A stretch of DNA of 64,000 nt from Vermamoeba vermiformis (GCA_045837725.1 JBEWZL010000124.1:124001-188000); one strand, 5' to 3'. Numbered from the stretch's first letter, positions 15,157 through 60,515 are shown. The notes: generated by a model from the letters alone, not told the origin. Made by a program: numbers and translations.

Positions 15157-16210
15157 TGCGTCCGGTTTGTCAGCTCACTAGCGAAATATGGTCTGTTAAC
15201 AAGTTTATGATCGCATTAAGATATGCCTTACGGTGATTGTTGGCTCTAATTCAAGATTTTGTTGATTAATAAAATAAGACGCGTGGGCTAAATTTTCTTA
15301 CTTTTTTTGAATCACTTCACATCCCCTTGTTAGTCATTGCGGTCTACTTATCCGGAGTTCCGTTTACCTATAATTAAAGAGCAAGTTAAAAAGGACGTAG
15401 GAGATACTAAGAATTATTTTAATCGACTTCTCGTATGTTTAATCTAATTTACGGTTAAAAATTGTAACATTAATTATATTATCAAATAGACTTGCTGGAA
15501 ATAAGTGAAGAACTATTTAGTAATTTAATTTATTATTAACCAATGATTTTGCAACACTGAAATGCATTTACCTATTTTGTAGACTATTTTCGAGTGAAGC
15601 TCAATACAAAGACTGCAAGCAATGTCGATGTCCTACCCGCCATGTCGTGTTGTTGTCAATACGGTTAGTTTGATTTTGCGTCGCCAACAAAAACACATTT
15701 TGACGCGTCGTTGTTGGAAAATTGGTCCATTGTGATTTGATAGGTCCACACGTCAAAATATTGCTTTGACTGGAAAGCAATTAATTATTTATAAATGCCT
15801 TTTAGCGGTAAAGGTGATAATTTAATATTTGGAAGCAATGCAAGCTTGATTGATTGAGCTGTAATTAATAATTAGGCGAAAGGAATATTCTTATCGTAAT
15901 TTAGCCATCAAGGAATAATATTTTAATATTAATACCTGGTACCGGATGAGAGGAGTCGTCGATCAAAAAGATCGGATTTTTGAAATGCTACATCGCAACG
16001 GCAACGAACTGCAATGGCGAAGAGTTTGCTAGAACTGAGACGAGACCAGACAATAGAGGCACGCGTGGTGCAAGGACGAGACAAAGATCAGACAGAAAAG
16101 TTGCCGCCAAAAAAATTGAATTTTTACAACGGTAACTTGACTTTTGTTTCGAATTTCAACACGTTTTTAACATTATTCCTTTAGCATACTACCACGCCTA
16201 AACTCGTGCT

Positions 16211-19200
16211 ATGAGCCAAGTAAAATTACACGTTGCCACGGTGAAGGGTTGGACTCTTGCCAGATTTACAGATAAGGAGTAAGTTCTCCTGAAGCAATAA
16301 TTGGTTCCTACATCGATTTATTAATATTTAATAATTAGTGGTGCATTCGTTCTTACGAGCGATCATTCTCACAAGGTGAAAGCCTTGGACAAGAACGGGG
16401 AAACCAAGTCTGATCAAAAAAAACACGACGATGGAATCAACGATATTGCCATTATGAACGTACGGCACTATATATATTTTACCACCAAGTAAATTCTAAT
16501 ATTTCGTCAGACTTTCCTCGTGACTGCATCTTCAGATCGCACAACCCGTTTGTGGAGCATTGACGAGGGTATTATTGAAGGTGGTGACCAATTTGATCGA
16601 GTAGATACGAAAGTATACTCAGTTGCTGGTTCGAGCGATACAAACTTCGTTGCTTGCGGGTAAGTCAAGTAAAATTCGAATCTGACTTAGATTTGAGATT
16701 CAAAAGACATTTACGGTATTAAGTACGTTACTAACATAATATTTAGTACCGATCGATCCATTAGATTGCTTCAACGTCACGATATGACTTATCTCCGCTC
16801 GATCAAGGGCCACGAAGGTTTCGTAACCAGTTTGGCTTTTGACCCTTGCAGAAACTATCTTGCCTCTGCTGCTACTGATGGCACCGTTAAAATCTGGAAA
16901 TATACTGCTGATGACGCTCTTATGACCACTTTGAACATTGCTAGCAAGGACAACTCGTAAGTTCCTGATCTGTTGTTCTTATTTTCTCGCCCAAAACAAT
17001 TCTAATGCGTATCGTTAGTCTATCACAACGTAATAAAATGGCCTGGAGCAAGAGTGGCGCTTATTTGGCCGTTGCTACCGACAAAGGTAAGATCCGTGCT
17101 CAACAGTCATGAGAGCGCCTTTATTAACCTATTATTAGGTGTTGCAATCATCTCTCGTGATACTTGGCAAGTTCAATACACTACAGAGGAGCCATCTAAG
17201 GTTTTGGACGTTGCTTGGTCTGCATCTGGCGACTACTTGGCCTCCGCTCACGAGAAATCAGTTTTTATCTGGTCCACCGAGGATTGGGCATCTACTAACA
17301 GGTAATTAACTATACATCATTTATTTGAGCCACATCGGGTGGATTGTACTGACTCATTTCATTCTTAGAATTGAAGTTGCTGGCGTTAGCTCGATCGAGT
17401 GGCACCCAAAAAATCAAACTACTCTTCTCGTGTCTACCGTTGAAGGTCAATGGGGTCTTATTGAGAATGTTATCTTTGAATCAAAGAAGAAAAAAGCGAA
17501 AACTGCCGCAGCGGATCCCTTAGCTGAAGTGCAGAGACAAGAGAACTCCCTAAAATTTCTATTGGATGATGAAGCTGATGAGGACGATGAAGGAGACGAC
17601 CTCGATCAAATGATTCTCGACGACTCATCCAACCAGTAAGCTTTCAAAATCGAATCCACAATTTTTTAACTTTTCCTAGTGGTTCATCCTCCAGAAAGGT
17701 ACCTTTGGGCAGGTCTCGTCGTAGTTTGGTTGACGATAATTCTTCCGTGATTAACGACGATATGGGCGACTTTATCGTTGACGATGTTGCCAGCGAAAAG
17801 AGCTTCAAATCCGCTACTTCGAAGAATATCATGGCTGCTCCTAAAAACAAGGCTCCTAAGGAACCTAAACAAGCTGTTACTATTATTCAAGGCTATACTC
17901 CCGAAATTCAAGCTCCTTTCCAACCAAACGCATCCAGCGTTGAAGAAAAACGCCGTTACCTAGGTACGAATATGAAGCTAATTTGTTCATAGTTCCATTA
18001 CCTAACAATATATAATATTGTAGCTTGGAATACTACTGGCAGCGTTGTTGCTCGTTACGACGACGCTTCAACTAACATTGAAGTCGAATTCAGCGATCAA
18101 AGCGCTCACAAGAACTTCAGTATGAATAAGGGCATTAAGATTACGTAAGTATTAACAACTATAGTTATATTAAGAGCGTTTATTAACGGTTTTATTTGTA
18201 GTCAAGCTGCCTTGGGTAATAAGGCCGTTGTTTTGGCTAGTGATGGCAAAGACGGTAATGCCTCGTCAGTTCTTTACTGTCAATTCGAGTCCTGGGCTCA
18301 CAACTCTGATTGGACTATTAAATTGGAGCAACCTGAGCAAGTTGAAGGTTCGTTGTTAGATTCGATCCGGATGTAGAAAACAAAACTAATTTGTACTCAT
18401 TTAGCCGTTGCTGTTGGTGATGAATGGATTGCCATTGCTACTTCTAACCGATTCTTGCGCATTTTCACCACTTCTGGCATTCAGCGCGCAGTTTTGTCTG
18501 TTGCCGGTGATGTTGTCTCAATGGTCGGTCAACAACGCAAACTTGCCGTCATTTTCAGTGCTACCCCTAACCTTCCTGGTATGTACATTATTCTACTAAT
18601 TTTGGAGAGTAGACCTGACTCTAGTTTGTTTTTTTAGGTGATCAGAACATGAACTTTATGGTTCTTGATGTTCAAAAGCAATTGACTCTTACTGAAGGTT
18701 TCTTGCCTTTGAGCCGCAAGAGCAGATTGGAATGGATTGGCTTCTCTGATGAAGAACACGTACGCATCCACAAAAGGTCTTGAGATCTCATATTTCTAAC
18801 CTTTCGTTTCAGATGCTTTGCTCATTTGACTCAGCCGGTATTTTGCGAGCTCTTGTTAGCCCTACCAGCCAAGTAAGTTCTATATTAAAATGAAATTACC
18901 TACCATGGTACTAACCGGATGTTGTTAGGGTGAGTGGGGCAAACAATGGTCTCCGATCTGCGAGACTGAAACTAACGGCAAAGGCACTCGTGTGTGGCCT
19001 ATTGGTATCGTGCACGACAAGCTCATCTATATTCCCAAGCCAGTACGTAAAATAATATTCTTTTTGCGTCCTGATTACTTACGTTATTTTTTTTTCCTTT
19101 TTAGGAAAGCGCAGTTGCTCCGTTAGTCTTGCCTAGACCTACTCCTACAACTTTGCAGCTTCAAATCCCCGTTTTGAACGTGAACAAGAAGGAAGAAGAG

Positions 19201-23673: not shown

Positions 23674-26170
23674 ATGAGACTGCAGCTGTTTTTTATGGCA
23701 TTTATCCTGCTGGCCTTCGCATCGAATTTTGTTAACGGAGGTATTTAATTAATGATCGCATATTTACCCTTGCTAATGTCAATTGTTAGATTTGTTAACG
23801 AATCATGGATTGCTTTACGTTCGGATCGTTCCGCCAGATGGTGCAATTATCAAATCTAATCCTCCATCATTTTGGTGGACTGCTCAAGGATATCTTGGCA
23901 CCGGCAAATCATTTACGTTGTCGATCTGGGCCAACTCGGCATCCGATCGTCAACCTGACTGGAGTTTCAACACGACAAACAACTTCTACAACATGCCTCT
24001 TGCGTTACCCGTGGACACGACCTACTTTTGGAGAGTGACTTTGATGAACTCTGTCATGGGCACGTCGAATGACAGCGATGTGCGTTCTTTTTTCGTCACA
24101 TCTGATGCCACAACATTTATCGTGCCAAATGACGTTATCACAACGACAAAGAATTCTGCTCGTCCACGGTTGTTGCTTAAGGGCGATGCGAAGACAGCTT
24201 TCTTGGCTTCATCCGCTGGTCAATCATTCGTCAAGCAATTGAATGCCGTTGTAATTCCGTACCTGAACAGTAAGCTCGGAGCAACACTTCCTGTTGCGCC
24301 GAACAAAACTGCTAGTGATTTTGCTTATGGATCTCCGGAATGGGCTGCATACTCATCGAGCGTTATGAATGACTTCACGAGTCCGCAGGTCCTTTACATT
24401 TCAAACTGCATTTACGCTCTTTGGTACGACTCGTCAAATGCAACCATAGTCAATGAGCTCAAGCGAAGAACATTAGCACTTTTGGACGCGGATCCAGCAG
24501 GAGCAACAAGCCAGGCCTCACAAGATCAAGCGAACAGAGCTATCTTCTTGTCATTGGCACAAACCCTGGATTTGATCTACGACAATTTCACCGTAACTGA
24601 TCGCAATAGAATCATGGCGAACATCAAGAACAGAACCGAGCAAGTGTACAACAATGGATATTTCTTCACTCAATTAATGACAGCGCCATACGACTCTCAC
24701 GGTGCCAACACTCTCGGCTACGTCGCTAGTGCTAGTGCGGCGATGCTTGGACTGATTCCTGAAGCAGACGCATGGGCAGCGAGTATTCCGATGTTCTTCA
24801 ACATGTACAGCACGTGGGGTGAGCACGAAGGAGGCTTTGGCAACGGCATTGGCTACAACTACTACTCCGTGACAAGTGAACCAGCTAACTTCAAATTCTT
24901 GAAGTGGAGTACTGGCGTGAGTCTGTATCGGAAGCAGTGGGTGCAGCGGTGGCCCTTGCAGTTCATTTACTTCTCCCCTCCAGGTGCGGCATCGGGAGGT
25001 CTTGGCTTTGGCGACAGCGGGCAGAATGACATGCGAGTGTATCAACCTATGGTCTGTCTCAACGTTGTTAGTTACGTTCTTGATGAGTCTCCGACCATGG
25101 AATACCAAGAACTTTATAACTGGTACTGCAATGCGCTCACCTACAAAGGCGTTGTCGACACGCGCCGCTACGATGTTATTTGGAGCCGTGAGTTCAACTC
25201 GCCTCAACCTCTGACAGGCAACTATCCCAATGCTGTCCACTTGGAATCGATTGGCTGGGCCTCATTCCACAGCTCTCTTGCTGACAATCTACGCACTTCA
25301 ATGTTCTTCCGCTCAGGCAGATTCGGCTCGTTCAATCACAACTACGCAGATCAGTTGTGCTTCACATTTGCACACAAAGGCAAAGCGTTGCTCATCAACA
25401 GCGGTTACTACGATTACTATGGATCTGCTCATCATAATGGTTGGACTAGGACCACACGATCAAAGAGTGGTGGTGTGACAATGGATGGAGGTGTTGGGCA
25501 AACGATGAATCAGATCTCGGCGACAGGAAACATCACTCAATTTGGCCACTCAAACGAATTTGATTTCATCACTGGAGATGCTTTGGTCGCGTACAATTAT
25601 GGCGTAACAAACACAGATCTTCAATTAACACGCGCCATTCGCTCCATTGTCTACTTCCGCGCTAGCAATCAGTTTGTGATCTTCGATCAATTTGACGCCA
25701 ACTCTTCTCGGAGCTTTGAATGGAATCTGCACGCATTCAAAAACTTCACTGTTGTCTCTCCATCGACTGTCAAGTCAAGTGACGGCAACGCATCAATGTG
25801 CATCAAGATGCTGTACACGTCATCTGATTACACCTTTACTCAAACAGATCAGTTTACTGTTCCGGTGAACTTGCCTAATCAAGCACACGGACAGTTCAAA
25901 CTCAACACTAATCTCACTTCAGTCACTTTTGTTGTGCTGTTGGATCCAGACTGTACGGGAAATGAACCACAGCTGAATCATAATGGGAACACGTGGTCAT
26001 TCAATATTGGCGAAACGATAGGCACTTGGGATGGCAATCAACTTGCCTTCTCTAATCCTGAAACACCCACTGACTCTCACACACCCGATGGCTCCGTCAC
26101 CAGCACTGCCTCGCCGACTGCCTTTTGGTTTGTCGCAATAACTATTGCTTCGTGCATCATGTTGGTTTAA
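23674..26170 (+). CDS. Heparinase II/III or oligo-alginate lyase-like (DUF4962 + Hepar_II_III), copy B, intact; signal peptide and GPI-like tail
   Basis: Signal exon MRLQLFFMAFILLAFAS, one short intron, 795-aa ORF with RPRLL, YDSHG, GFGNGIGY, GFGDSG, FRSGRFGSFNHNYADQ, LLINSGYYDYYGSAHH, FEWNLH; S/T/P stalk and hydrophobic C-terminus. Confidence 0.85.
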
Positions 26171-27418: not shown

Positions 27419-30066
27419 ATGGGTGGCGTGGCTGATGACGGAAGCCAGTACTCGAACGGAGTAGCTGCGATCTTCGTATTTAATTTAATTGTCGGAGTCG
27501 GCGTGTTAAATTTGCCGCTTGGATTTCAAAGCGCAGGTCTGGTAAGTATTTATTAAAAACACAATTAAAAAGCGAAGATTTTCTAACGGCAGTTTTGGAT
27601 CCGAATTTTAAAAAATCTTATAATTCGCCAAGGCGCTGAAATATTAATTTAATTACTTATAATCAATTATTCGTTATTTTTACGGTTTATGAAAGTCATA
27701 AATTAATTATTATTTTGTGATCAGGTGCTGGGAACAGTTTTTTTGGGATTCCTCGCTTTACTAGCGTAAGTTTATTAGTGCCATATTATGAAATACACAT
27801 TAATATTAATTTATACGGCAAAGTTACATCACAATTTCGTTTATGATTGAAACTCACGCTGCAGCAAACGCGATCTTGTCCGAAGAGGAACAACAGGTAA
27901 ATAAATACCTATTATATTTACATTTATATTTACGATAATGAATTATGCTATCTTTCAGTAATACAAAGCAATAGTTGAAATTTCGAATGTTGATCGGGAT
28001 CTTCTGATCGCTAACACTTTTTTTAATGAATACCTAGACCCAGCCACTATTAGGAAATGAAGAAATAGTAGTAGGACGCACTATTAATGAAGCCCCGTCG
28101 GACCGAGATCCGTTCGATATTTCAAAACGAGTCGAAATGGGTGTTATGGCCGAAATTTTCTTAGGCCCCGTCGGCAAAATTTTCTTCTACATTGTTATGA
28201 TCGTATCCTTATAATATTATTATACTATACTAATGTCATGCGCTAAACTCAATTAGCAAGAAATTTTTTTCCTTCACTAAATATTCTCGCAGATCTACTT
28301 GTTTGGAGATCTGGCAATTTACGCCGTCGCAGTTCCATCATCTCTTGCTGCAGCCACTGGTGGTTGGTCTGTAGGTAAGTATAATACTGCATTTGCGAAT
28401 AGTCTAGCGAATATTTCGGAGGAGTTTCCGAGGGACAAACCTTGTGATTCGAAATTGCTGTCAATTTTTCTGACCGTGAAAATGCAGTTTCCTAATTTGT
28501 AATTTTTATTATAGGCTCAATTACATTCACCGATGATAATGTATATTACTTCTATTTGGCTTGTTTTACGATTATTGTAGTGCCATTTGGATTTTTTAAT
28601 TTCCAAAAAACGAAATATTTGCAATTCTTCACTATGGGCACGAGAAACACTGCTTTATTTATGTAAGTACTATTCGTATTATCGTGTTATTATGCATTTC
28701 CTTATTTATTTTGCAGGATGATTATTTTGGGTTTGATTTTCATTGGTCAAGGCAACGGCGCATTACCCGATCAATTGCCGTTAGTAAATTGGGCGTAAGT
28801 ATTTATTTTTAAATTTTACCACAACATATTTTATCAATTTTATCATTCTCGGCAAATTTTTAAAAAAGTAGAGTACTTCCGCGCCAATTTGGTAATTAAT
28901 TTTTCTACGGCTTGCAAAAAAAGCGAACTTTATTGTATTTTACTTTGGTATTATTATACAATTATTAAATTATTATTATTTTTGCGCAGAGGCTTGCCTA
29001 AAATGTTCGGAGTTGCCGTGTACGCATTCATGTGCCACCACAGCTTGCCGTCAATCGTGACACCGATCAAGGACAAATCATTCGTCGGAAAGTTGATGGG
29101 CATTGACCTCTTGTTGATCTATCTCACGTACATCTTGCTCAATTATTCCGCCATGTTCGCTTTTGGCGCTATTGACAACCCAACCTGTGACTCGACACCA
29201 GGTAAGAAAATTAACTCCAATTCCATCGTAATTGCATATTTATTACTTAAAGAATCGTAATTATGATAACTATTCGATATTTGGAAGTTAATTTTTTGGT
29301 AGTTTTGAACGAATGTGAAAAAAAATCAAGATCTGGATCTGACAACTTTTTTCATGCACATCAAAGCAAGCGGTACTAATATTGTTTTTAAGGTCCTGCA
29401 TGCAAAATTCAGCCACTCTACACGTGGAACTTCAATTCGTACCACATTGTGCCCATCGCCAAGTTCTTGGGCTTGTTCCCCGTGTTCACGTTGTCCACGA
29501 ACTTCCCGTTGATTATGATCACACTGCGCAACAACGTGATGAACTTGATCAAGGTTGGCGAGCGTTCAATGAATCCTACTTTGCGCGGAGTTATTTTCAG
29601 CATTCTTGTCACCGCACCTGCTATCACCATTGCATTTTTCACTCAGGACATCAAAATTTTGGTACGTAATAATAATAATAATTACAAATACGTATGACAC
29701 GTGACTGAAATTAGCAAAAATATTCCAATTTTAAAAAAGAATTGCAAAATTTTGGTTTCGTTTGTGACACGTGTCAAAACAGCACTTGCATCGATTTTTG
29801 CTTGTATATGATCTGTTCGTTCGCTAACCTCGCTGTGACAGGTGTCAGTGACGGGCTCGTACGCAGGCATGGGCATTATGTTCTTGTTCCCTTCGCTGCT
29901 CGTCTTCTTCGCTCGTCGCAAGATCACTGCGCGCTTCGGATTCTACGAAAACAAGCACGCATCATTCTTCAGACACACTTTTTGGATCGTGTTGATCTGG
30001 ATCTGGGTTGTTGGTGCTACTGGTCTCGTGGTGTACACTCAAATTAGCTCTGTTGTATCTGAATAA
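27419..30066 (+). CDS. TMEM104: Transmembrane protein 104 (Aa_trans amino-acid transporter family), multi-exon
   Basis: FVFNLIVGVGVLNLP, KRVEMG, IYLFGDLAIYA, YAFMCHHSLPSIVTP, FPVFTLSTNFPLIMITLRNN, TGSYAG. Confidence 0.9.
28203..28292 (+). other. U12-type (minor spliceosome) GT-AG intron in TMEM104
   Basis: 5' splice site GTATCCTT; branch-like TTCCTTCAC at 28269-28277, 16 nt before the AG. Removal joins FYIVMI to IYLFGDLAIYA in frame. Confidence 0.8.
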
Positions 30067-30223
30067 AATATAGGTACTTTCCTAATATGGTAAAATCAAA
30101 AAACAAGCAGACAAAAATCTCCCGCCTTCAATTCCGTTCTTTTTCTCAGTTCAATAGCATAGTGAAGCACGATTAAATGAAAAATAGGTAGCCACTCATT
30201 ATAGTAATACGTATACCACATAA

Positions 30224-32930
30224 ATGGAAGTTAAAACTGAGGATCTTGAGCGGTTGTTCGAATCCAAATATTCAGGTAATTTCAACTTTGTTGTTTAGCA
30301 ACAAATAAATAATGAAAATTAGTAAAATAATTTTAGATTATTAATTAAGTTGTTTTGAACAAGATTTAAAGCTCCAGAATATTTATTTATTTGGATCGAG
30401 ACTTTACCAATGTCATAACGAGCAATCCGATTACGATTTTATCGTATTAGTAGAAGGAGAATATTTCTTTGGATCTAAATTAATAGAAACTGATCTTGTA
30501 AATTTAAACGTAAGTCGCTTTACACCAAAATATTGATCTCAATTAATTTTAATTTTTAAATAGATCTACCACCTCGATTATTTTAACGAGCTGCTTAAAG
30601 AAAACATAGTATGGGCGATAATGCTATATTATATTCCTCCGGAGTTTATCTTCAAAGAGAACATCAAACTCGATTTCAAAATTCGGATCCCGAGCTTAAA
30701 AAAATCATGTACGTCTCATATATGATTAATATCCTTATTAATTATTTATATAGCGCTTATGGATGCTTCTCACAATTACGCGAAGGCTAAACGCCTTTGG
30801 TCTATGAACGACCACAAAAAATCGAAGAAAAATATTGTTCATGGTCTTCGGTGCGTATTTAATTAAATATTAGTATAATATTATTATTTTTTAATTTGCA
30901 ATAAAATTATAGTAAAATCATCAATTAGACCGAATTATTAATCGTTCGTTGATAGATATTTATTATTAGCGAAACAACTGCTCGAACAAGAAAAAATCGT
31001 TGATTTTACCGCTGGCAATGAATATTGGCGCGATTTAATGCAAAATGAGTGGCGAGATTGGGACGAGATTGAATGCAAATACAAACCTATCTACGGCGAT
31101 CTGATGCACGAAATCAAACACTCGTACAATCCTGAAGATATTAACGTAAGTACATCTAATACTTATACTTAATATAGTCATAGCTAATTAAGGAAATATT
31201 TTTGCGTTAGAGCGACGAAGAAAATAAATTATTATCAGTAGTGTACATACACCGACTCGGAATCGATGCCTTATGCTCCGTAAGTACTATTTTTCAACAA
31301 TACTCTTTTTAATAGCATTAACATCACAATATGAAAGTACTATTAATTTTTTGAATAATTTTATTGTTATTTTTTTTTGTTGACCGGTTAATTTTTTAGG
31401 ATTTTAGTATAACGAGCACGAAACACAAAACAGTGAGTGATTTAGTGCACTTAAAATACGACAAAAAGAGCTCGCCACTCGATCAACTGATAGTGCAAGA
31501 ATGTAACGGGCTCGTTGTGGACGTGAAACAATTGAAAGCGATCTGCGTCCCGCCAAAGAAATTCTTTCAACACAACGGCAATTTGAAATCAACTGTCGAT
31601 GAGCAATCAGGTAAAAAAATATTATAATATAACAAGATACTGTTCTCCTGGTTTGATTTTCATTTTCGCGTGAAAAATTAGCTTGACACGTGTCAAAGAT
31701 ATTTTTCACAGGCATCGCGATCGATGTACGCTCCTTATTTAGAAACTAATATTATACGATTACATTACAGCGGTGGTTTATGAAAAGATCGATGGATTGA
31801 CAGCGAATTTGTACTATTATAATGACACTTGGCACGTGTCAACAGATTACACAGCAGACGGATCCGAACAAATTGAAATTCCGTTTCATTTCTCAAAACA
31901 AGAATATAAATTACGTTGGAATGCGTGGCGAACGACAGAATTCACTGAAGAAGAGAAAAAAATGAAGGGACTGTCATTGACCAATCAAAAAATTGACGCA
32001 ACGAACGAGCACAAGAAAATTGTTTCATTTTCGGAGTTATTTTGGGAAGCATGGTCTAAAAATGGCTATAAATTGCCCGAAGACACGACAAAGTGCTACT
32101 TATTTGTGCTGATCTCGAAACGCTACACGAATGTTTGCAGATATTTCGAATCGATCGATCAGCAGCAACCGCGGTTCACTGAAAACACTCTCTTACTGAT
32201 TGGTTGCAGAAATTTATCGACATTTGATGAAGAAGCTCCTGAAGGTCCGTCATTATCCTTTTATGGAAGCTTCACCAAATGTACTAACTAAGCATTTAGA
32301 TGTGGCGGAAAAATATGGCTGGAAAGCAATTGCATCGTACAATTATTCCGCGTCAATCGATGACTTGGCTAAAAAATCATTGGAATTGGATCCGATCTTT
32401 CACGAAGGATTCGTTGTTTGCGACAGCAGGTACGTACACGGTTACTAAATATGGAAATAACTACGTAATATGAACAATTACTAATTTGGTACTAATGAAG
32501 GTTCAACCGAGTTAAAGTTCGATCGCCTCAATTTTCCGCACTTTTGGAGCTGGATCTGGTCAACAATGACTTGAACACTAATTACAGACTAATGATCGAT
32601 CTCATTCGGTCAAACGATCACGTGACATTTTTGGAGTATTTCACGCAGTTACAACCACTCTACGAGAGCGTCAAGAAAGATTTTGACAATTTTTGGAACG
32701 AGTTCCAAAAAGTATACAATAGTATACGATTTGATATTAACGATCCAAATTTGGATCAAAAGTTATTGGCGAGAAATTACGCCGCGACAGCGAAGAAGTA
32801 CAATTATTATCAGCTCTTATTTGAACTTCGAAAGATGAATTTTAGCGTGATTAGTGTCAAAGATTATTTGCGCACGATAAGATTGAAAAAGATTATCGAT
32901 TTATTGCGCGAGATCAAAGCTAAGAAATAA
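30224..32930 (+). CDS. Fusion of a Pol-beta-superfamily nucleotidyltransferase and a T4 Rnl1-type ATP-dependent RNA ligase, multi-exon
   Basis: YLFGSRLY...SDYDFIV (30385-30445), helical SHNYAKAKRL..KKNIVHGLRY, then VQECNGLVVD, PPKKFF, YEKIDG (motif I), WHVST, LLLIGCRN, EGFVVCD (motif IV), FNRVKVRSPQF (motif V). Confidence 0.82.
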
Positions 32931-33119
32931 ACTCGTTTCGATAACATTCGATATTGTTCAGTGAACAAATTAGGAAATCGAATAGTTACAGCGGCATGTA
33001 TTATTTCGAATATGTTTTTTGTTGGCTGAGATGGTGGTATTATTGATTTAATGGCGTATAATAATATAAAACATATTAGAATACACAAAGTCGTCGTTAT
33101 TTTCAACTTTTCTTGTCTT

Positions 33120-35051
33120 TCAATCGATGAGGACTGAAAAATATTGTTGCTGCCATTTCAACGATTCTTCCTCGTTTTCAGTGAATATAACACTATCAAT
33201 TAATCTTTTTGCTCCAACTTTCGTTTCTTTCAACAATTTTGCTAATTGTGGCGTTACAGCTGATCGCGTGATAAGTATGTAAAGCACATCCGTTAACGGA
33301 ACCGATGGAGGCAAAAGTGCTTCGAGTCTGCCATGCGGATCAACGTTCATATACCAATCTATTATATCTTGCGTAGTAACATCTTCGGGTCGATCTTTTT
33401 TTCGCTCATCTGGCGGAAAACTTCCGGCGATCAGATCCATCTTCGGAACCCATGAAAAATGTTCGTCTTTTGCATAATTTTTGAAAGCATTTTGAACAGT
33501 TGTTGATATATAATCATCTCTATTAACAACTGCATCGTATTGAGATCGGTCTTTCAAAAACGCTAAGATTGCTTGGGATGTGATTTCTTGTTGGGCTTGT
33601 AAAAACCAATATCCGCTTTTGTAATCGTAAATTTCTTTTCTTTGCAGTTGTTTTAATAATTCCAATTCTCCGCGAGTTGCTGTTGCTCCATAATGAGAAC
33701 TTCTATTCAAAAAATATGCAAGATCCGCTCCAATACTTTCACTAAAAGTGCTATTAGTCCATACATTGCCTCCATATTGTGTCGCTTTGAATTCTTTTGA
33801 TGCTAATTTTAGCCACGGGCGTAATGGCAACGCATGGCCTGATATTAATGTTGTGCTGCTGTTCATCGTTATTTTGGATTCGTTAAAAGCAGTGCGTTTG
33901 AATATAATAGAAACAGGTCCATAATGCACATTCGGTCCCATAACTGCAAATACGTGTTCGTGAGTTCCAAGAAATTCGTCGACCCAATAACCGATCCCTG
34001 TTTGTGACGATGTTTTCGGATCTGATACGAGACTCAGTGCGACTTTTTCGATCTTATCAAAGTCTTCTTTTGTAAAGGCCGGGAAGTAAAATTCAAATCG
34101 TGCTCTGCGTAGTTGAATTACACGTGTGTTACCCAAGCGATCGGCTGCAATCATGACCTGAAAAAAATTGTAAAAAATTGCAATAAAAGTTTTCATACTA
34201 AATAATTATTACTAATTTATCAATAAGAATATTATTAATTAATTAGTAGCACTTACTTCAGCCAAATTGATGATTTTTTCGATGCAATGATAGCACCGCC
34301 AAATGGGTACTGACTTATCCCACGGGCAAATTTTGCCGGTCATAATTTGCATAAAATGCGTTTGAAAATTCAGCATTAATTTAGTATACACTGAAGGTAT
34401 AGTGTCTGGTGGCATTAGTCGGGATCGGGCCTTGACGCTTCCAGATTGAATTATCTTGATGAGTGTATCGACTGAGCAACTATGAACTGGTAGTAGCTTC
34501 GTCAAAAGGTCTGTTACAGCTGCAGGCGGAGTTCTTAAAATTGCTGAAGGGAGCTTGTCGTCTTCAAACTGCGCCCGCCAAATATTCCGGCTCCACTTGC
34601 AAAAAGAGTGGTTTGATAGTGATGGTAATGCAGATGCTATATTAATAAAATTTCGGTCACTAGGTTTTATAATAATTGCGTACGAGTGAAAATTAAATTG
34701 CCCCATTTCCAGATCCCCAAAGATTTTGTTTCGCAGTATTATTTAAATTTTAATATTGTTATCATTACCTTGAAATAAATAAACGCCAATAACTGCGCAA
34801 TCACCAATTTTGTTGGTCGCCAAGGGCGAATCTGGGGAAAACGACACCTTCGTCTGCTTTCCTTCACCTTCTTTATAATACCACAGATAAATACAATGAA
34901 TATTCGGTGGATTTATGTTCGTTTTTTCTTTGATCAATTCTACCAAAGTTTGAGCGCTGCTGCACACGGCGATCTTGTAACCATTCACCAATGTCGTGCC
35001 TGTTGGTGTATCATAGTGATTTATAGTCAAAGAATAAATAGCTGTGTTCAT
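33120..35051 (-). CDS. Ubiquitin-like N-terminus plus putative ADP-ribosyltransferase-fold (DarT/DUF3626-like) domain, about 3 exons
   Basis: Three ORFs (34743-35117, 34239-34706, 33120-34196) linked by GT-AG introns. Motifs LPVHSC.VDTLIKIIQSGSVKAR, HVFAVMG..HYGPVSIIF and LEALLPPSVPLTDVLYI resemble the ART strand pattern. Coding status is solid; the family call is inference. Confidence 0.55.
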
Positions 35052-44026: not shown

Positions 44027-46457
44027 ATGACACGATCAAGAAGATCTGGCTTACTCCTCGTGCAAATTTGTACTAAGTCATTGAATTAAATATAGCGAGC
44101 TCACTAGCAAACCTGGGTCCGATATTATCCGATGTAGCTGCTAACGGAGGATCAGTGGCCAACATCTCGGTCAAAGATAACAACATCAATCTATTTTTAT
44201 ATAAGCAACAAGGTATACACTTTTATTTACATACCATATTATGGAGAAAATATTTGGCTAATTCTTTAAAAATACTGACGTTCGATGTACAATTTATTGA
44301 ATGGGTGCGCAGTAGATGGGCCCAAGTTCTACATCATTTTAGCACAACGTATTGACATTTATTGTATAAGATGACGAAACAAAGAAGATTTCAGAAATTA
44401 TGCAAAGATACGGCTCAGTATTCGTAGCTGAGAGCTACCTCGAGCTCATCTTATCAGTGCACGTGACTGAAACTGCAGAAATCTATTCAATCGTTAGCAA
44501 CTCGCAAAATCATCACATTCAAAAGCATAATGGAGTCAATACCCAAGTAATTGCAGGTAAGAACGCATCCGGGTCCGAGACCGTTGATCCAACGCCACAC
44601 AACTTCTTGAAAAGGTCATCTTTCTAACATTTGTACATAAGATAGCACTACTATACACGAGGTACTAGAGTTACTGAAGAAGCAGCACAAAGAAGAGAAC
44701 AAAACGGAAGACAAACAAATTGAACGTACGTGAGACTGCTGCTTTGCGTTACGATGTGACCGTTATAATTAATTCTATCATAATAGATTCAGCGTGGTGG
44801 ACACAAAGGCGGGGAGCTTTATTGAGTTTAGTTGCTTCTGGAGCTCACAAGACCCCTCTGTACGTTTATAACAAGTCGCTTGTGGAGGATCGGATCCGCG
44901 CCTTGAAGGAACTGAGAGCCATCAACAAAATATTTTATGCAATCAAGGCTAATAACAACAAAGAGATTTTAGAGGTGCTTAATAAGCACGGAGTTGGTTT
45001 TGAGGTACGTTGTTTCGGATGCTGAGCAACTCGTGATCCGTTCTTTCGTGTAGTGCGTGAGCCCTGGAGAGTTAGATCATATTCGAAGCTTGTTTCCTGA
45101 TATAGATACATATCAAAGACTGCTATTCACTCCTAACTTTGCACCTATTGACGAGTACAAGTACGCGTTCAACATGCGCGCTATTGTGACCGTGGATAAT
45201 ATCTATCTTTTGGAGCATCATCCTGAGGTATTCAGGTATGTAAAAGAATTTCATATGATGGAACGATATGCTAAAGGTTGATTTTAGGGACCAATCAATA
45301 TTCGTTCGCATTGATCCAGAGATCGGTCGAGGACATCACAAGCACGTTAAGACAGCTGGCACTAAGGTAATGCAGGCCAAAAATCGACATTATTCATTAT
45401 TAACGCACAAGTTAGTCAAAATTCGGTGTTCCTGTCTCATCTGCGGATCGCTTGGAAGAGCTAGTTAATCGTTACAACATCAAAGTTGTCGGTCTCCATG
45501 CTCACTCTGGAAGCGGTATTTTGCAAGAGCCCGAGAACTGGTCTGAAGTAGCTAAGTTGCTTTACTCACTGGCACCAAGGGTACGTTGCTATTATGGTGC
45601 TATTAATGGTGTAATGACACGTGATCCAGTTCCCTCACTTGCACACGCTGAACTTGGGCGGTGGTCTAGGCATCCCTTATCGACCTGAGCAAGTACCTCT
45701 CGACTTGAAGGCTGTTGGAAAACTATTAGACGAGTTCAAATTGCACACTAAAGAGAAGCACCCGCATCTGCAGTTCATGATCGAGCCAGGTAAGCGCTTT
45801 TTTGGTCTTACTATCATAATAATGAGGAATTTAGGACGCTTCCTCGTTGCTGAGGCTGGTGTTATTCTCTGTAAGATGACTCAGTTGAAGCAGAAGGGCA
45901 CGATGTGGTACCTTGGTGTTGACTCCGGTTTCCACTCCTTGATCCGACCTGTACTATATGATGCTTACCATGAAATCGTCAATCTGACTCGCTTGGATGA
46001 GCCACTAAAGTGGAAGGTGGACGTAGTTGGTGTCATTTGCGAGGTAAGCAGTGCTCCCTCTTTCCTTTTTGACCGGTCTCGGTTGGCGTCGTTTTTCGAC
46101 TCCAACAAGCTTCCATAGCTCAGTCGGCAGAGCGTTCGGCTGTTAACCGAAAGGTCCCTGGTTCGAACCCAGGTGGGAGCGAATTTTTTTTGCCCTTTTT
46201 TGCTGCTTTACACCTTCGCTTGCGTATTTGTTATTATTCAATTTAACTTTAGCGAAGTTTTCTTACTACCAAAATTTTCCCTGATCCACATCGATCTGAC
46301 TTTTGATCAGTCAGGAGACGTGCTTGGTCACGAGCGAGACTTCCCAGAGAGTCAAGAAGGGGACGTAGTACTAATTGCAAATACTGGCGCGTATGGAAAA
46401 GTAATGAGCAGTAATTACAATATTCGCGATCCTGGTCAAGAAGTATGTCTGGCGTAA
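44027..46457 (+). CDS. lysA: Diaminopimelate decarboxylase with N-terminal ACT-like extension, multi-exon
   Basis: TPLYVYN, FYAIKAN (PLP Lys), GFECVSPGE, FTPNFAP, GRGHHKHVKTAG..SKFG, GLHAHSGSG, LNLGGGLG, EPGRFLVAEAG, IRPVLY, ICESGDVLG, NTGAYG..MSSNYN. Confidence 0.92.
46109..46181 (+). tRNA. tRNA-Asn(GTT), nested in the last intron of lysA
   Basis: Acceptor stem GCTTCCA/TGGGAGC, D arm GCTCAGTCGGCAGAGC, anticodon arm TTCGG-CTGTTAA-CCGAA, T arm CCTGG-TTCGAAC-CCAGG, T-run terminator. Confidence 0.97.
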
Positions 46458-47694: not shown

Positions 47695-50600
47695 ATGGAG
47701 AAGAATACGCCTGTTTCACGCTCGTCCTCTAGAAAGGGGGAGAAGCGTCCGTCACATCTGTCAACGTACCACATCGAACAAACTTCAAACGGTAGTGATC
47801 ACGATTTTTGGGTCGAACATCATGGGAGCGATGACTCCGACGACCAGATTACTTGGGACGATCTTGCCTATCTCGAGTCAAGCTCTGAAGACAGTTCCGA
47901 AGTCGAGCACAACCCGTCACATCCAAGATCTGTGAATCGAAAGATCGAACCGACATCGGAAAAGAAGTCCAACAAGAAGAAGAATGTCCTTAAGGAATTT
48001 CTGGTTACCCATGCGACTCTTTTGAAATCACTGTCGATCGAAGTCAAAGCGCTGCGTAAAGAACTCGATGAAACGAAGCGCAAGAAGAAGAGCAAGAAAG
48101 CTCCGCAAGAAGATCTGAATAAGACTATTTATCGTCCTTCTACTGAGCGCGATAACGATTCTGAGGACGATAGATCTGAAACTCCGCCCAAGAAGAAACT
48201 GTCCTTCAACACTCCAGGACACTCAACGCCTTATCGACCTCGAGGCGAAGAAGGACTCATTAATGACGATGGTCCTTATTTGGAGATTGGTCTGCAAGAG
48301 TCCATCAAGTTTCCTGCTGGTGCCGACCAACTTGAGACTTTCCAAGGCGAACAAGGTGACACGTTTGCGCTTTGGTGGGCTCACTTCCGTCGAATCTCTG
48401 CCAAGTGGAGCGACTCTGTTCGTCCACGTGCTGCTGGCTAAGTTTGGCCGCAATCCTCGTGCATGGCTCTTGAATGTGCTTGAAAACAAGATCACGTGGA
48501 ATGGTCTTGTCAATGAAATCGAACGCGCGTACTCGTCCCTCAACTCTGACACGGAGTTGCGCCAGAGCATGCGAAAGCTCAAGTGGTTGCCGAGTACCAA
48601 GAAGACTGCTCAAGTTTGGCTCCAGAAGATGGAAGCTCTGTGCGTGCGAATGAAAGAGAAGATCCCCGACAAGGAATTCTTGCGTCTGATCTTTGATGAC
48701 TGTCTCCCGGCGAAAAATCGCATGTATTTAGGAGACCCTGACAATTACTCGACGTATTTGGACTTCCGTGCAAAGTTGCTTCAACACGAGCTCACCTTCA
48801 TGCAAGTGCTAGAAGAAGAGAACAATGAGCGTCAGAAGAACCACAACAATCGCGGTAGTGCTAAGAGTCCTGCCCCTGCAAAGGCCCAGTCAACAACTGC
48901 TGCCACTACGACCCCTGCGACGTCAACGACAACAGACGCCGCCACGACCGAGGTAAAGAGCAAGCCGGATGCATCAGGCGTCACTTGCCATTATTGTAAG
49001 CAATTGGGTCATTACAAATCCGATTGCCCTAAAAAGAAGCGAAATGCTTTCATGTATGTCGCTTCTTCCGATCCAGGACCGTCCGAGGAGTCTTCGTCTG
49101 ATACTGATGAGGACTCTGAGGAGTCTATTCAAGGCTCTCCGGGATCTAGCGTAGCCATCGAGCCTGTTGACGAAAACTCCGCTGAGCCTGTCATCGTCTC
49201 AGTTCATCATAGTTCGTCAATGCATCAACAAATACAGGCATCTCGCGGCGATGGAGACGCTAGCCCACCCGTCCCCGATCGGCAAGTACCTCTCTATTCT
49301 ATCCCACAACGCGTGTGGATGCCAGACCTGATTGATACTGATGACTTCGGAACACCAGTTCGCTGGACTACACAACAAATTATTCCAACCGTCAACAACG
49401 CTGTTGTCCCGGATTTCCCGATCCCTGGTGTTCTTCCTGACACCCCTGGCTCGTCCCCCGAGCTGCTGATTCAGTTTGACGACATGCCTCAGCCCGAGCC
49501 TGGCAACAACACCAACGTTCAAGTGCCTGGTTCACCCCCTGTTTCTGTTTCAACGGAGACATCACTGCCCTCGCCCTTGAAAGACATCGTCATAGGCGAC
49601 AAGAAGAGCCGTTTGTCCTCCGTGACTCCTGCTGAGACCGTCGTGACTATCGACGAGAACCCCTTCAAGTGTCTGTTGGACTCTGGTTCGAACGTCTCGC
49701 TCATTACAGCAGCTGCATTGCAATTGTTGCCTGTTAATAGCTTCACTGTAATCCCCGCTAGCGACTCTTTTAAAGTCGGCAATAGCGAGTCTGTCTCCCT
49801 TCATGGTGCGGTGTATTTGCCCGTGACCATGTGTTCTTTGACTGTTCCAGTGCGTTTTGAAATCGTAGACCAATTCGAAGGCTACGACGTAGTCATTGGT
49901 CTTGACGAGATGATTCGTCTCGACATGGATTTATGTCTGCCGCTACGACAATTTAATTTGCCCGGTGGACATCCACAACTTTTGTGGATTGGCTACGCCC
50001 CAACGCACAAGATCCCTGTCCTGTCCTATGCTCCCGGTCCTTTTGCTGACAAACAGGTCCTTCAACCGTCTGTCACAACCCCTGTCAAAGTACGACTGCC
50101 AGTTGTCATTCCTTCGAATATGTTTTTCCGCATCGTCGATCCAACATGCCAAGATGCGTTTATTTTGACGCAAGATATTATTCAAGGCAGTGACAGTTTG
50201 TTTTATGAGCTCGACGCTTATAATCCTAGACTCGCCCGAGTGCATCTACTCAACGGGTTGCGGATCGCGAACATCGAGATCGTTGGAACTGATTCTCTCT
50301 TTCAAAAAGGGGAGAAGAAGGTCAATATAGAAGACAAGAATAATAACAACATGACTGTTGACCCAGAAGTTCCGACTTCGGCATCTGCTTCGACATCTGT
50401 TTCAACGTCAACGTCAACAAATCAGAATTCCGACTCACAAAATCTTGATCCGGTAATGTTTGGTCTGAAGATTGGCAAACTAGAAGCTGAACAAAGAGCC
50501 AAGTTAGATCTATTGATTGCGAAATATTCATCAATTTTCGATCGACCCAAGAAGTGGGGTGCCAACATCTGCGTTCAGCACCAGATCGAACTGAAGCCCG

Positions 50601-53433: not shown

Positions 53434-54572
53434 GGGAGGAACTTTTTTAAGGGGCAAAATGGTACGATTATTAATGATCATATGATCAACTTTACAAAAT
53501 CATTTCCCATCATATGATGGCTGCAGTTTATCATATGATAAATTTATGCAAGCCCAAGCAACCCCTGGGCAGGATTTCACCAGGGCACGTGCGCGGAGCT
53601 TAATCGTTGCATGTTCAACAAGTCACTCCCGAGTTTAACACAACCCTCAATACATGATATCATTTTTCGTTTATATAACCTGCTACACTAAGCATTCACC
53701 TTTCACCAACGTGAGGATGCAATGCGTAATTCGAGATGGGCCTTTGATTCAGCTCTGTGGCAACTGCAGATCATAATCTCCTCGTGCAAGTATGATAAAA
53801 AATATGCACTTACTAATTGCACTCAATTTTGAGAAGATCCAAGCTGAATTGCCGGTTTGGATTTTGATTTAATTATTTTAAATTTTCTTTCTTTGGCCAC
53901 AAAATTATTTTCATTATCATTCATTAGCCATCACCACCCAGTAAATAAGCAAATTTTAAAATAAGACTAATTTTGAATAATTTACCGAGCATTACCTCAT
54001 CTCATCCGTAACGGTCAAATAATTTTATTAAATCTGAAAAATTGTCTGAAGATTCACCATTTTTCCCCAATTTCATTATCATATTTCCACTATCATTACT
54101 ATCTAAAATTCACACAGGAGTGCTGGAAAACACTGCAAATACTTGAGATCTGAGTGCGCGCACCGATCATGAGGTTCAAGCGGTATTGTTTGTTTTGTAG
54201 TATTATCGGCAATTTAGATTAAAATGTGATAAAAAATTATACAGTGGAATCCACTCCCAAAAGCCCAAGCCATGAATTAGTTATTTAATTAGCAAATTCA
54301 CATCTGGCTTAGATGTTGATGAGTTCACCAAATGCAATCTTACCGGTAAACTACGGAACACTTGTGAAGAATTTTAACAATGTAAACAAGCTATGCATGC
54401 TTGTCTGTTTAACATCAAACTAGAAGGGCATAAAATGGCACTGGCTCGTTAGGCCTACCCACGTGCCACACCACGAGACAATTTGAGCATATGATCGATT
54501 TTATCATATGATGGCACTTATCATATGATCATTAATAATCGTACCATTTTGCCCCTTAAAAAAGTTCCTCCC
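53434..54572. mobile_element. Non-autonomous TIR element (1139 bp, Mutator/Merlin-like) nested in the Gypsy pol 3' region
   Basis: Perfect 53-bp TIRs at 53434-53486 and 54520-54572 (GGGAGGAACTTTTTTAAGGGGC...). 9-bp TSD GTCAAACAA at 53425-53433 and 54573-54581. Repeated palindrome ATCATATGAT near both ends. Confidence 0.95.
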
Positions 54573-60197: not shown

Positions 60198-60515
60198 CTT
60201 GCAGTCATGCTTATGGTATCTGTAATGAAGATCGTTACAAACGAAGAATGATTGAGAGGATATGTGACAGGTATTCGAGGCAATCACAACGTTTTACGTT
60301 TGACACCATTTTAAATCTAAGCAAGCTTCCTGAACAATCTCAAAGTCGTAACGAACCAATTTTTTAAGGAAAAAATGCCTCAATTGGCTATTTGTGACTT
60401 ATGAAGATAAAGAACAAATAATTTTGCACGAATTGCATTGGTTTGGTTCACTTTTTAAGTCCCAGATCTACGATTACTATGATGCAATTAAACAATATTA
60501 TGATGTTTTTTTGCC

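What the first reader, a model, noticed from the sequence alone, without database searches (positions are those of the whole stretch)
30224..35051. Candidate two-gene conflict module: RNA-repair fusion tail-to-tail with an ART-fold gene
Seen: the two genes converge with only about 190 bp between stop codons, between unrelated membrane-protein genes. Inference: either a toxin/repair pair or a complete RNA heal-and-seal pathway. The second is plausible because the ART fold includes Tpt1/KptA RNA 2'-phosphotransferases and RNA-end-modifying enzymes that act with ligases. Adjacency in a compact eukaryotic genome can be chance.
Basis: inference. Interest (0 to 1): 0.75.

Follow-up and report, generated by a model that had tools for sequence, protein, structure and literature searches.

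The report
RNA-ligase fusion beside unannotated ART-fold gene
Two neighbouring genes in a gene-dense eukaryotic genome encode an RNA-repair-type enzyme and a member of an uncatalogued family of likely ADP-ribose-transferring enzymes, but nothing yet shows that they work together.

Summary
Gene A (+, 30224-32930, 10 exons, 647 aa) fuses a Pol-beta nucleotidyltransferase (GS...DxD) to an ATP-dependent RNA-ligase domain (KIDG, EGFVV, VKVR). Gene B (-, 35051-33120, 3 exons, 567 aa) converges on it, with 189 bp between the stop codons.

Gene B has no Pfam, NCBIfam or PADLOC match. It belongs to a family of 141 representative clusters with three conserved motifs: PVH[RS]C...SIL..G..S, GP..YG, and DSH..E.[HL]LP. 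A model of a 28%-identical homologue matches only ART-fold enzymes at the top of the list: SopF, OspC3, CopC and DarT at Z 9.3-11.2, and Tpt1 at only 6.9.

Of 139 family members scanned, 23 carry a microbial-type PARG domain and 12 a PBZ domain. None carries an RNA-ligase or nucleotidyltransferase domain. Some members sit in phage head-module proteins.

The proposed functional link is not supported. The only relative with genomic context keeps the pair, but it keeps the flanking transporter too. All three spacers measured here are 113-189 bp. No relatives of gene A were found in viral or prokaryotic collections. The Tpt1 "heal-and-seal" reading is unlikely.

Most likely these are two independent genes that happen to be adjacent. 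A nucleic-acid ADP-ribosylation/repair pairing remains possible at about 15-20%.

The parts
30224..32930 (+). Gene A: Pol-beta NTase fused to an ATP-dependent RNA ligase, 647 aa. Exons: 30224-30275, 30364-30509, 30564-30708, 30754-30850, 30956-31145, 31211-31279, 31400-31610, 31771-32244, 32300-32429, 32501-32930.
   Evidence: Splice model with nine GT-AG introns and an intact 1944-nt ORF, 87.4% identical to P0005. tblastn of P0005 covers every exon.
30393..30437 (+). NTase catalytic motif: G28-S29 (30393-30398) and D40-Y-D42 (30429-30437).
   Evidence: G, S and both D residues are invariant in all 9 family members. Pfam Polbeta and NTP_transf_2 score above their cut-offs on this exon.
31785..31787 (+). 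Codon of Lys309 in EKIDG, the putative adenylylated lysine of ligase motif I.
   Evidence: The Lys is kept in 6 of 9 family members. PF09414 and the T4 Rnl1 profile matches span this region.
32404..32516 (+). Ligase motifs IV-like (EGFVV, aa 497-501, exon 9) and V-like (RVKVR, aa 508-512, exon 10); the range spans the 71-nt intron 32430-32500.
   Evidence: The motif names are recalled from the ligase literature and were not assigned by a tool.
32931..33119 (.). 189-bp spacer between the converging stop codons.
   Evidence: It is not alignable to the 283-bp equivalent in L001.
33120..35051 (-). Gene B: ART-fold protein, 567 aa. Exons: 35051-34769, 34636-34257, 34157-33120.
   Evidence: The exon 2/3 junction NLAE|V is contiguous in homologues P0006 and P0009. 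In L001 the exon-2 frame has no upstream in-frame ATG, which implies an upstream exon. Attachment of exon 1 rests on splice-site logic only.
34482..34484 (-). Codon of His146 in PVHSCS (ART strand-1 histidine).
   Evidence: The motif was found in 86 of 95 family members with enough upstream sequence. H is invariant in alignment A2 and lies on strand 61-65 of the model.
33921..33923 (-). Codon of Tyr300 in GPNVHYGP (candidate ART tyrosine).
   Evidence: Y-G is nearly invariant. Its structural equivalence to the catalytic Tyr of known ARTs is inferred, not measured.
33321..33323 (-). Codon of Glu500 in DPHGRLEALLP (candidate catalytic glutamate).
   Evidence: The H at -4 is invariant and the E nearly invariant across the family. 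The E lies on strand 451-455 of the model.
34769..35051 (-). Gene B exon 1 (94 aa): an N-terminal domain of unknown type, possibly a beta-grasp by eye.
   Evidence: The ORF is open from ATG 35051, with a GTAATG donor in phase with the exon-2 acceptor. No Pfam match. It is not present in P0006 or P0009.

Best explanation
These are two independent, separately transcribed genes that lie tail to tail because this eukaryotic genome is gene-dense. Gene A is a single-polypeptide RNA-end repair enzyme. Its AadA/KNTase/MntA-like Pol-beta nucleotidyltransferase, with its helical partner domain, would add or transfer nucleotides at RNA ends. Its Rnl1/Rnl2-like ligase domain would seal 3'-OH/5'-PO4 ends through a Lys309-AMP intermediate. 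Gene B is a stand-alone member of an uncatalogued H-Y-E ART-fold family whose nearest folds are SopF/OspC/CopC and DarT. It most likely uses NAD+ to ADP-ribosylate a macromolecule, either protein or nucleic acid. What is shown: the gene structures, domain identities, conserved catalytic-type residues, the fold of a homologue, and the family's domain partners. What is inferred: the enzymatic activities, the substrates, and the independence of the two genes.
For: Gene models. NTase: Pfam above cut-off on the window exon; GS and DxD invariant in 9 of 9 family members; profile matches to an NTase-domain protein (E 0.005), streptomycin adenylyltransferase (0.011) and MNT antitoxin (0.12). Ligase: the KIDG, EGFVV and VKVR motifs; weak PF09414 and T4 Rnl1 matches; precomputed PF09511 on P0148. 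ART fold: the P0006 model has 188 residues at pLDDT >=90, and the top 8 of 48,161 chains are all ARTs at Z 9.3-11.2, with the next unrelated row at 7.8 (repeated). Family partners point to ADP-ribose signalling: PARG in 23, PBZ in 12, and Macro, PARP and ART in 1 each, out of 139. Independence: the genes converge, so they cannot share a transcript. Spacers of 113, 157 and 189 bp show that tight packing is the local norm. No ligase or NTase fusion occurs in 139 gene-B relatives, and no ART domain was listed by Pfam for P0005 or in the precomputed domains of the 9 gene-A relatives. None of 3 phage loci has a ligase or NTase nearby. The conserved adjacency in L001 extends to the unrelated transporter.
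Against: Both genes belong to enzyme classes typical of nucleic-acid conflict and repair, which is a thematic match. The pair is retained in the only relative whose context could be read, while synteny breaks about 6 kb further on. There is a bacterial precedent linking a ligase with the same PARG type that is fused to gene-B relatives: the D. radiodurans DRB0100-DRB0099-DRB0098 operon (passages of PMC11833690). Co-occurrence across distant eukaryotes and co-expression could not be tested. The structural evidence comes from a homologue, not from the window's own spliced protein.
Confidence: 0.6

Rival explanations
1. The two genes form a functional nucleic-acid ADP-ribosylation/repair pair. 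Gene B ADP-ribosylates RNA or DNA, either on bases (DarT-like) or on 5'/3'-phosphate ends. Gene A works on the same molecules: it either restores and seals ends after the mark is removed, or its sealing is gated by the mark. This would make a toxin/repair or attack/self-protection module.
For: DarT, which modifies DNA, is among the nearest folds (Z 9.3-10.0). 23 of 139 family members carry a microbial-type PARG. The passages of PMC11833690 seen report that bacterial-type PARGs remove ADP-ribose efficiently from RNA/DNA phosphate ends, and that one sits in an operon with an RNA/DNA ligase and a kinase-phosphatase. Adjacency is kept in L001. The N-terminus of gene A weakly matches candidate-defence NTase models (PADLOC PDC-S09, E 9.7e-05) and MntA (E 2.1e-04).
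Against: Eukaryotic neighbours are not operons, and these two converge. The L001 synteny includes the unrelated neighbour gene. No fusions or neighbourhoods join the two families anywhere I could look: 0 of 139, 0 of 9 and 0 of 3 phage loci. The window encodes no PARG or Macro eraser in ORFs of 140 aa or more (only a partial test in an intron-bearing genome). The spacing is typical for the locus.
Confidence: 0.18
2. The pair is a complete heal-and-seal pathway. Gene B would be a Tpt1/KptA-type 2'-phosphotransferase that removes the junction 2'-phosphate left by a Trl1-like ligase in gene A.
For: Tpt1 is an ART-fold enzyme and appears among the matches (Z 6.9, 107 residues aligned). The ligase of gene A has weak Rnl1/Trl1-type affinities (PF09511 precomputed on P0148; T4 Rnl1 E 0.026).
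Against: No PF01885 match was listed at E<=1 for the window exons, P0002 or 28 family members. Tpt1 aligns only through its ART lobe and ranks below eight DarT/SopF/OspC-type chains. The family's triad is H...Y...E rather than Tpt1's Arg/His set (recalled). The family's partners are PARG and PBZ, not RNA-repair domains. Gene A has no kinase or cyclic-phosphodiesterase domain that would generate a 2'-phosphate.
Confidence: 0.04
3. Gene B is a non-catalytic ART-like scaffold (a pseudo-enzyme) or a NAD+ glycohydrolase rather than a transferase.
For: No activity is known for any member. The window's subfamily has L where most members have H in E.HLP. The fold match has low sequence identity (6-12%).
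Against: H146, Y300, H496 and E500 sit at the family's invariant or near-invariant positions. Family members are repeatedly fused to erasers (PARG, Macro) and readers (PBZ), as expected for a writer.
Confidence: 0.1

Closest known systems
DarT (DarTG toxin, DNA ADP-ribosyltransferase)
   Same: ART fold. 161-178 residues align over most of the roughly 200-residue enzyme at Z 8.6-10.0. Both have a strand-1 His followed by a helix of SIL..G.L.S type, and a late catalytic Glu.
   Different: No Pfam DarT match was listed at E<=1, and identity is only 8-11%. Gene B has a roughly 120-residue helical hairpin inserted after the first strands and a second insert between the two conserved blocks. No DarG-type macro partner was seen next door. 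Gene B is a eukaryotic gene with introns, and its target is unknown.
SopF / OspC3 / CopC (bacterial type III effectors with an ART-like fold)
   Same: These are the best structural matches: Z 10.3-11.2 with 207-222 residues aligned.
   Different: Identity is 6-12%. These are cofactor-activated (ARF, calmodulin) bacterial effectors. Nothing here points to such cofactors or to ADP-riboxanation chemistry.
Tpt1/KptA RNA 2'-phosphotransferase
   Same: The ART lobe resembles the model (Z 6.9, rmsd 3.0, 107 residues aligned).
   Different: It ranks below eight other ART chains and shows no family HMM match. Gene B shows no match to Tpt1's RNA-binding lobe, and its conserved residues differ.
ART domains of phage polyvalent proteins (Tox-ART-HYD2 clade; Iyer et al. 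2017, PMC5512222, passages seen)
   Same: Phage relatives of gene B lie in 1062-1128-aa ORFs between the portal and major-head genes. They are fused to, or sit next to, InPase, MuF-like and Zeta-toxin-domain proteins. That is the context described for virion-packaged effectors.
   Different: That clade is H-Y-D and has its own Pfam model, whereas this family is H-Y-E and matched no Pfam ART model.
T4 Rnl1 / fungal Trl1 ligase domain and Rnl2 (PF09511, PF09414)
   Same: The KxDG lysine motif and the downstream EG... and K.K/R motifs are shared. There are weak HMM and profile matches.
   Different: All matches fall below curated thresholds. Gene A has an N-terminal Pol-beta NTase instead of kinase/CPD healing domains, and a C-terminal helical domain of its own. 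Three of 9 family members have lost the lysine.
AadA/KNTase/MntA-type Pol-beta nucleotidyltransferases
   Same: The GS...DxD core plus a following helical domain. Matches: Pfam above cut-off; PDB streptomycin adenylyltransferase E 0.011 and MNT antitoxin E 0.12; NCBIfam MntA E 2.1e-04.
   Different: None of those is fused to a ligase, and gene A has no HEPN partner.
D. radiodurans DRB0100 (ligase) - DRB0099 (PARG) - DRB0098 (phosphatase-kinase) operon (PMC11833690, passages seen)
   Same: It links an RNA/DNA ligase with the bacterial-type PARG domain, which is the domain fused to 23 of 139 gene-B relatives.
   Different: It is a bacterial operon and contains an eraser, not an ART. The window has no PARG. 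The connection to this locus is by inference only.
Kinetoplastid editing TUTase plus REL ligase (recalled; only a weak row for TbTUT4, E 0.52)
   Same: It works alike in principle: a Pol-beta NTase adds nucleotides and an Rnl2-type ligase seals.
   Different: Those are separate proteins in a complex. No homology beyond the superfamily level is shown here.

Membership tests
ADP-ribosyltransferase (ART) fold superfamily | Split beta-sheet ART core recognisable by structure comparison | tested here: met
   The model of homologue P0006 (28% identical to the window gene by tblastn) has ARTs as the top 8 of 48,161 chains, Z 9.3-11.2 (repeated). The window's own spliced protein could not be folded.
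ADP-ribosyltransferase (ART) fold superfamily | Strand-1 His, strand-2 Tyr and strand-5 Glu/Asp (H-Y-E class; definition as in PMC5512222 passages) | tested here: met
   H146, Y300 and E500 of the window protein fall on invariant or near-invariant family columns, and H and E lie on predicted strands. Spatial convergence of the three residues was not measured.
ADP-ribosyltransferase (ART) fold superfamily | NAD+ binding and ADP-ribose transfer | not testable with these tools
   Needs biochemistry.
DarT (Pfam DarT/DUF4433; accession recalled) | Match to the family HMM | tested here: not met
   No such row at E<=1 for the window exons, P0002 or 28 family members.
DarT (DarTG system) | Adjacent macro-domain antitoxin (DarG) | tested here: inconclusive
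   No Macro match in window ORFs of 140 aa or more, but ORF-level scanning of an intron-bearing genome is incomplete.
Tpt1/KptA (PF01885) | Match to the family HMM | tested here: not met
   No row at E<=1.
Tpt1/KptA (PF01885) | Two-lobe structure: RNA lobe plus ART lobe | tested here: inconclusive
   Only the ART lobe of 7yw4 aligns (Z 6.9, 107 residues).
Pol-beta nucleotidyltransferase superfamily (PF18765 / PF01909) | HMM match above the curated cut-off and the GS...DxD motif | tested here: met
   30.6 bits (cut-off 26.9) and 24.2 bits (cut-off 21) on window:30345-30536. The motif is invariant in 9 of 9 members.
ATP-dependent RNA ligase (covalent nucleotidyltransferase superfamily; PF09414 / PF09511) | HMM match above the curated cut-off | tested here: inconclusive
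   PF09414 scores 18.8-20.1 bits against a cut-off of 27. PF09511 is only a precomputed label on P0148. T4 Rnl1 gives E 0.026.
ATP-dependent RNA ligase (covalent nucleotidyltransferase superfamily) | Motif I lysine (KxDG) with motifs IV and V | tested here: met
   EKIDG at aa 308, EGFVV at 497 and RVKVR at 508. These co-vary across the family: the three members that lack K also lack E. Motif definitions are recalled.
Two-gene conflict (toxin/repair) module | Linkage conserved beyond general synteny, or co-occurrence across distant lineages | tested here: inconclusive
   One relative keeps the pair together with the neighbour gene.
Two-gene conflict (toxin/repair) module | Domain fusion or neighbourhood joining the two families anywhere | tested here: not met
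   0 of 139 gene-B relatives, 0 of 9 gene-A relatives, and 0 of 3 phage loci.

The most novel reading that the evidence does not exclude
Gene B represents a so far uncatalogued DarT/SopF-like ART family that writes ADP-ribose onto nucleic acids, with PARG-fused relatives in eukaryotes and virion-packaged relatives in phages. In this lineage it would be paired with an NTase-RNA-ligase that restores the same RNA ends. That would make a eukaryotic chromosomal attack-and-repair module analogous to bacterial toxin/repair systems.
Probability: 0.15. Interest if true: 0.8.

Novelty: new variant of a known kind. Interest (0 to 1): 0.4.

Why it matters
The two-gene module itself is unproven, but two things are worth keeping. 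The first is an ART-fold family with no Pfam, NCBIfam or PADLOC model: 141 representative clusters, structurally nearest to DarT and to SopF/OspC/CopC. In eukaryotes it is repeatedly fused to bacterial-type PARG and PBZ domains and to immune-type modules (GBP, Roc-COR, STAND-like). In phages it sits in head-module effector proteins. This suggests an unstudied ADP-ribose writer used in conflicts on both sides of the prokaryote/eukaryote divide. The second is a protist-type family that joins a Pol-beta NTase to an RNA ligase in one chain, a compact add-and-seal RNA enzyme. Its NTase is always intact while the ligase has decayed in some members. Either protein could be expressed and assayed directly.

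Tried and rejected
- AlphaFold of gene B exon 3 alone with 5 close sequences gave an unusable model (pLDDT 37.9).
- Foldseek found nothing at E<=0.001 against PDB or BFVD. The weak PDB rows did include SopF, DarT, Tpt1 and CopC.
- A sequence profile of the ART family against PDB found nothing (best E 0.088, a designed protein).
- The ESM Atlas gave no usable hit for P0005 or P0006.
- The window's whole genome is not held.
- Pattern scans found no gene-A relatives in viral contigs (87 stretches matched, none confirmed) or in prokaryotic genomes (30 stretches, none confirmed).
- Pattern scans found no phage-type ART relatives in prokaryotic genomes (25 stretches, none confirmed).
- These pattern scans are insensitive, so absence is weak evidence.
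- RNA evidence: no RNA holder was listed. The three same-species-label RNA runs laid only 9, 23 and 14 reads, mostly 95-99% alike and only partly fitting, with no joints. This is uninformative on expression, splicing or co-expression.
- Earlier findings of this scan: nothing by place, sequence or words.
- No paralogues of either gene occur elsewhere in the window.
- Complex prediction was not run. I do not claim binding, and the full pair exceeds the size limit.
- Burroughs & Aravind 2016 (NAR 44:8525), the likeliest place for a prior description of NTase-ligase fusions, is not held. Prior description of either family therefore cannot be excluded.
- I considered a HEPN reading of gene A's helical domain and rejected it, because the conserved R...H spacing is 15 residues rather than 4-6 (recalled criterion).


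Full report
**What is there.**

The region is eukaryotic: its ORFs are broken by short GT-AG introns.

Gene A lies on the + strand, from ATG 30224 to TAA 32930.
- It has ten exons and nine introns of 45-160 nt.
- The spliced frame is 1944 nt (647 aa) and is 87.4% identical over its full length to P0005, a 649-aa protein that one source names "predicted nucleotidyltransferase".
- P0005's N-terminus fixed the first acceptor site at 30363/30364.

Gene B lies on the - strand, from ATG 35051 to TGA 33120.
- It has three exons and encodes 567 aa.
- The exon 2/3 junction (NLAE|V) reads through without a break in the distant homologues P0006 and P0009.
- In relative L001 the exon-2 frame has no in-frame ATG upstream of the conserved part, so an upstream exon is needed there too.
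- That exon 1 (35051-34769) is that exon rests on splice-site phase only.

The two stop codons are 189 bp apart.

**Gene A.**

The N-terminus is a Pol-beta nucleotidyltransferase.
- On the window exon, Polbeta scores 30.6 bits (cut-off 26.9) and NTP_transf_2 scores 24.2 bits (cut-off 21).
- G28-S29 and D40-x-D42 are present.
- A family profile weakly matches an NTase-domain protein (E 0.005), streptomycin 3''-adenylyltransferase (0.011) and MNT antitoxins.
- NCBIfam gives MntA at E 2.1e-04, far below its cut-off. PADLOC gives PDC-S09 candidate-defence NTases at E 9.7e-05.

The second half is an ATP-dependent RNA-ligase domain.
- PF09414 scores 18.8-20.1 bits, below its cut-off of 27. T4 RNA ligase 1 gives E 0.026. 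One relative carries a precomputed PF09511 label.
- The motifs EKIDG (K309), FSELF, EGFVV and RVKVR are present. The motif names are recalled.

A word-indexed search found 9 family clusters, including P0005, among 8,000 scored candidates. They are 27-35% identical, and the sources shown are EukProt transcriptomes, JGI, ENA and Logan. In their alignment the NTase residues are invariant in 9 of 9. The ligase Lys is kept in 6 of 9, and the three members without it also lack the motif-IV Glu. So the NTase is the constant part, and the ligase is intact in the window's gene.

**Gene B.**

No Pfam, NCBIfam or PADLOC model matches any of its exons.
- A word-indexed search found only 4 close relatives at 67-97% identity.
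- A profile of those, run against 1.84 billion representatives, found 141 proteins at E<=0.001, 46 at E<=1e-10 and 4 at E<=1e-30.

The family shares three motifs.
- L.PVH[RS]C...F.SIL..G.vMS was found in 86 of the 95 members that have at least 60 residues upstream. In the window it lies in exon 2, with the His at position 146.
- GIGY.vD..LGT..HVF..GP..YG, followed by SG...RPW (Y300 in the window).
- vDSH..iE.[HL]LP..VPL (H496 and E500 in the window).

I could not submit a spliced protein, so I folded the full-length homologue P0006 (28% identical to the window gene) with 27 other family members. The mean pLDDT is 69.6, with 188 residues at 90 or above. The His and the Glu lie on predicted strands.

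Structure comparison gave these results.
- Foldseek found nothing at E<=0.001.
- An all-against-all structural alignment to 48,161 PDB representatives put only ART-fold enzymes in the top eight:
  - SopF: Z 11.2, 215 residues aligned.
  - OspC3: Z 10.6 and 10.3.
  - CopC: Z 10.6.
  - Four DarT entries: Z 9.3-9.9.
- The next row is an unrelated helical match at Z 7.8, and yeast Tpt1 scores 6.9 with 107 residues aligned.
- A second look at Foldseek's own list gave the same order.

The fold call therefore stands above the tool's stated background (typical best Z of 7-8), but it is at fold level only.

**What the family associates with.**

I scanned all 139 other members (P0006-P0144) against Pfam. 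The threshold was 1e-3 for the first 40 and 1e-4 for the other 99.

| Pfam domain or class | Members (of 139) |
|---|---|
| Microbial-type PARG (PF10021) | 23 |
| PBZ (3 of them below Pfam's cut-off) | 12 |
| Methyltransf_FA | 8 |
| PARP catalytic, PF01129 ART, Macro, GBP, Roc-COR-LRR, Arf/Roc, DUF4062+NPHP3_N, protein kinase, InPase | 1 each |
| RNA ligase, Pol-beta NTase or other RNA-repair domain | 0 |

At E<=1, none of 28 members matched any Pfam ART model.

A subfamily occurs in phages. Three distinct IMG/VR loci (L002/L004 with its twin L003/L005, then L006, then L007) carry the domain in ORFs of 1062-1128 aa in two of them. In L007 the match lies across ORFs of 759 and 608 aa. These ORFs sit between the portal and major-head genes. 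They are fused to or next to InPase, and lie near MuF-like and Zeta-toxin-domain proteins. That is the setting described for virion-packaged polyvalent effectors in the passages of PMC5512222 that I read. The ART clade named there is H-Y-D, not H-Y-E. No ligase or NTase was found in those loci.

A quick midpoint-rooted FastTree of the conserved blocks covered 90 members; the others were dropped for incomplete blocks, and no support values were examined. It puts the window's clade with P0006, P0007, P0009-P0011 and P0013, apart from both the phage clade and the large PARG-fused clade.

**Is the pair a unit?**

- Context was obtainable for only one relative. L001 is an 8.7-kb metagenome contig about 71-76% identical in the coding parts.
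- It keeps gene B, gene A and the amino-acid transporter in the same order and orientation. It then jumps to a sequence that lies about 11 kb away and inverted in the window.
- Synteny at that distance, neighbour included, says nothing about function.
- The intergenic spacer does not align, and it differs in length: 283 bp against 189 bp.
- The spacers on either side of the pair are 157 and 113 bp, so 189 bp is ordinary here.
- The genes converge, so they cannot share a promoter or a transcript.
- Scans for gene-A relatives in viral and prokaryotic collections found none.
- The RNA runs offered did not cover the locus usefully.
- I could not learn which organisms the distant homologues come from, so co-occurrence remains untested.

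**What argues for a link.**

- Both genes are of nucleic-acid conflict/repair type.
- DarT is a DNA-modifying ART.
- In the passages of PMC11833690 that I read, bacterial-type PARGs strip ADP-ribose from RNA/DNA phosphate ends, and in D. radiodurans one sits in an operon with an RNA/DNA ligase and a phosphatase-kinase. This is the PARG type fused to 23 relatives of gene B.
- PMC9503650 (passages) describes NTases acting with RNA ligases in repair, and KptA as the ART branch of RNA repair.

These observations make a pairing conceivable, but they do not demonstrate one.

**Verdict.**

- The domain reading is right.
- The Tpt1 "heal-and-seal" version is unlikely (about 0.04).
- A nucleic-acid ADP-ribosylation/repair pairing stays open (about 0.15-0.2).
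- The best-supported reading is two independent neighbours (about 0.6).
- The more durable result is the ART-fold family itself. It is absent from the Pfam, NCBIfam and PADLOC libraries scanned here, and I found no description of it in four literature searches. One key paper could not be read.

Noticed in passing
window 48119-53514 (+): One open frame of 1642 aa with zinc knuckle, reverse transcriptase, RNase H and integrase domains, followed by an integrase C-terminal piece. It looks like an intact Ty3/Gypsy-type retrotransposon in the most GC-rich part of the window (48-50% GC).
   Followed up: no
window 56049-60293 (-) and 60831-64000 (-): Two tandem genes, each pairing a long leucine-rich-repeat region with a protein-kinase domain (receptor-kinase-like duplicates).
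   Followed up: no
window 12663-15052 (-) and 23777-26167 (+): Two paralogous heparinase II/III-like + DUF4962 genes on opposite strands. This is an unusual enzyme type for a eukaryote and possibly of bacterial origin.
   Followed up: no
L001 8318-8694 vs window 16180-16566: Beyond the shared transporter gene, the relative's contig continues into sequence that lies about 11 kb away and inverted in the window. This marks a rearrangement or insertion between the two genomes.
   Followed up: no
L004 10384-13767; L006 8847-12032; L007 7073-11296: Phage head-module ORFs carry the same ART-like domain together with InPase or next to a Zeta-toxin-domain protein. These are probably virion-packaged effectors with an ART type that has no Pfam model.
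   Followed up: partly
proteins P0150, P0151, P0152 (gene A family): Three of nine family members have lost the ligase lysine and the motif-IV glutamate but keep every NTase residue. In them the ligase module may be a non-catalytic RNA-binding part.
   Followed up: partly
window 30001-32000: Gene A is the most AT-rich stretch of the window (GC 0.326 in that bin; 0.342 for the whole gene against 0.416 for the window). The cause is unknown.
   Followed up: no
window 29800-32604, RNA runs X1-X3: The few RNA reads that fit are mostly 95-99% alike and carry consistent differences (for example at 31874-31967). The runs labelled as the same species seem to come from a diverged strain or a paralogue.
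   Followed up: no
window 45618-46115 (+): An exon of an ornithine/DAP/arginine decarboxylase gene.
   Followed up: no
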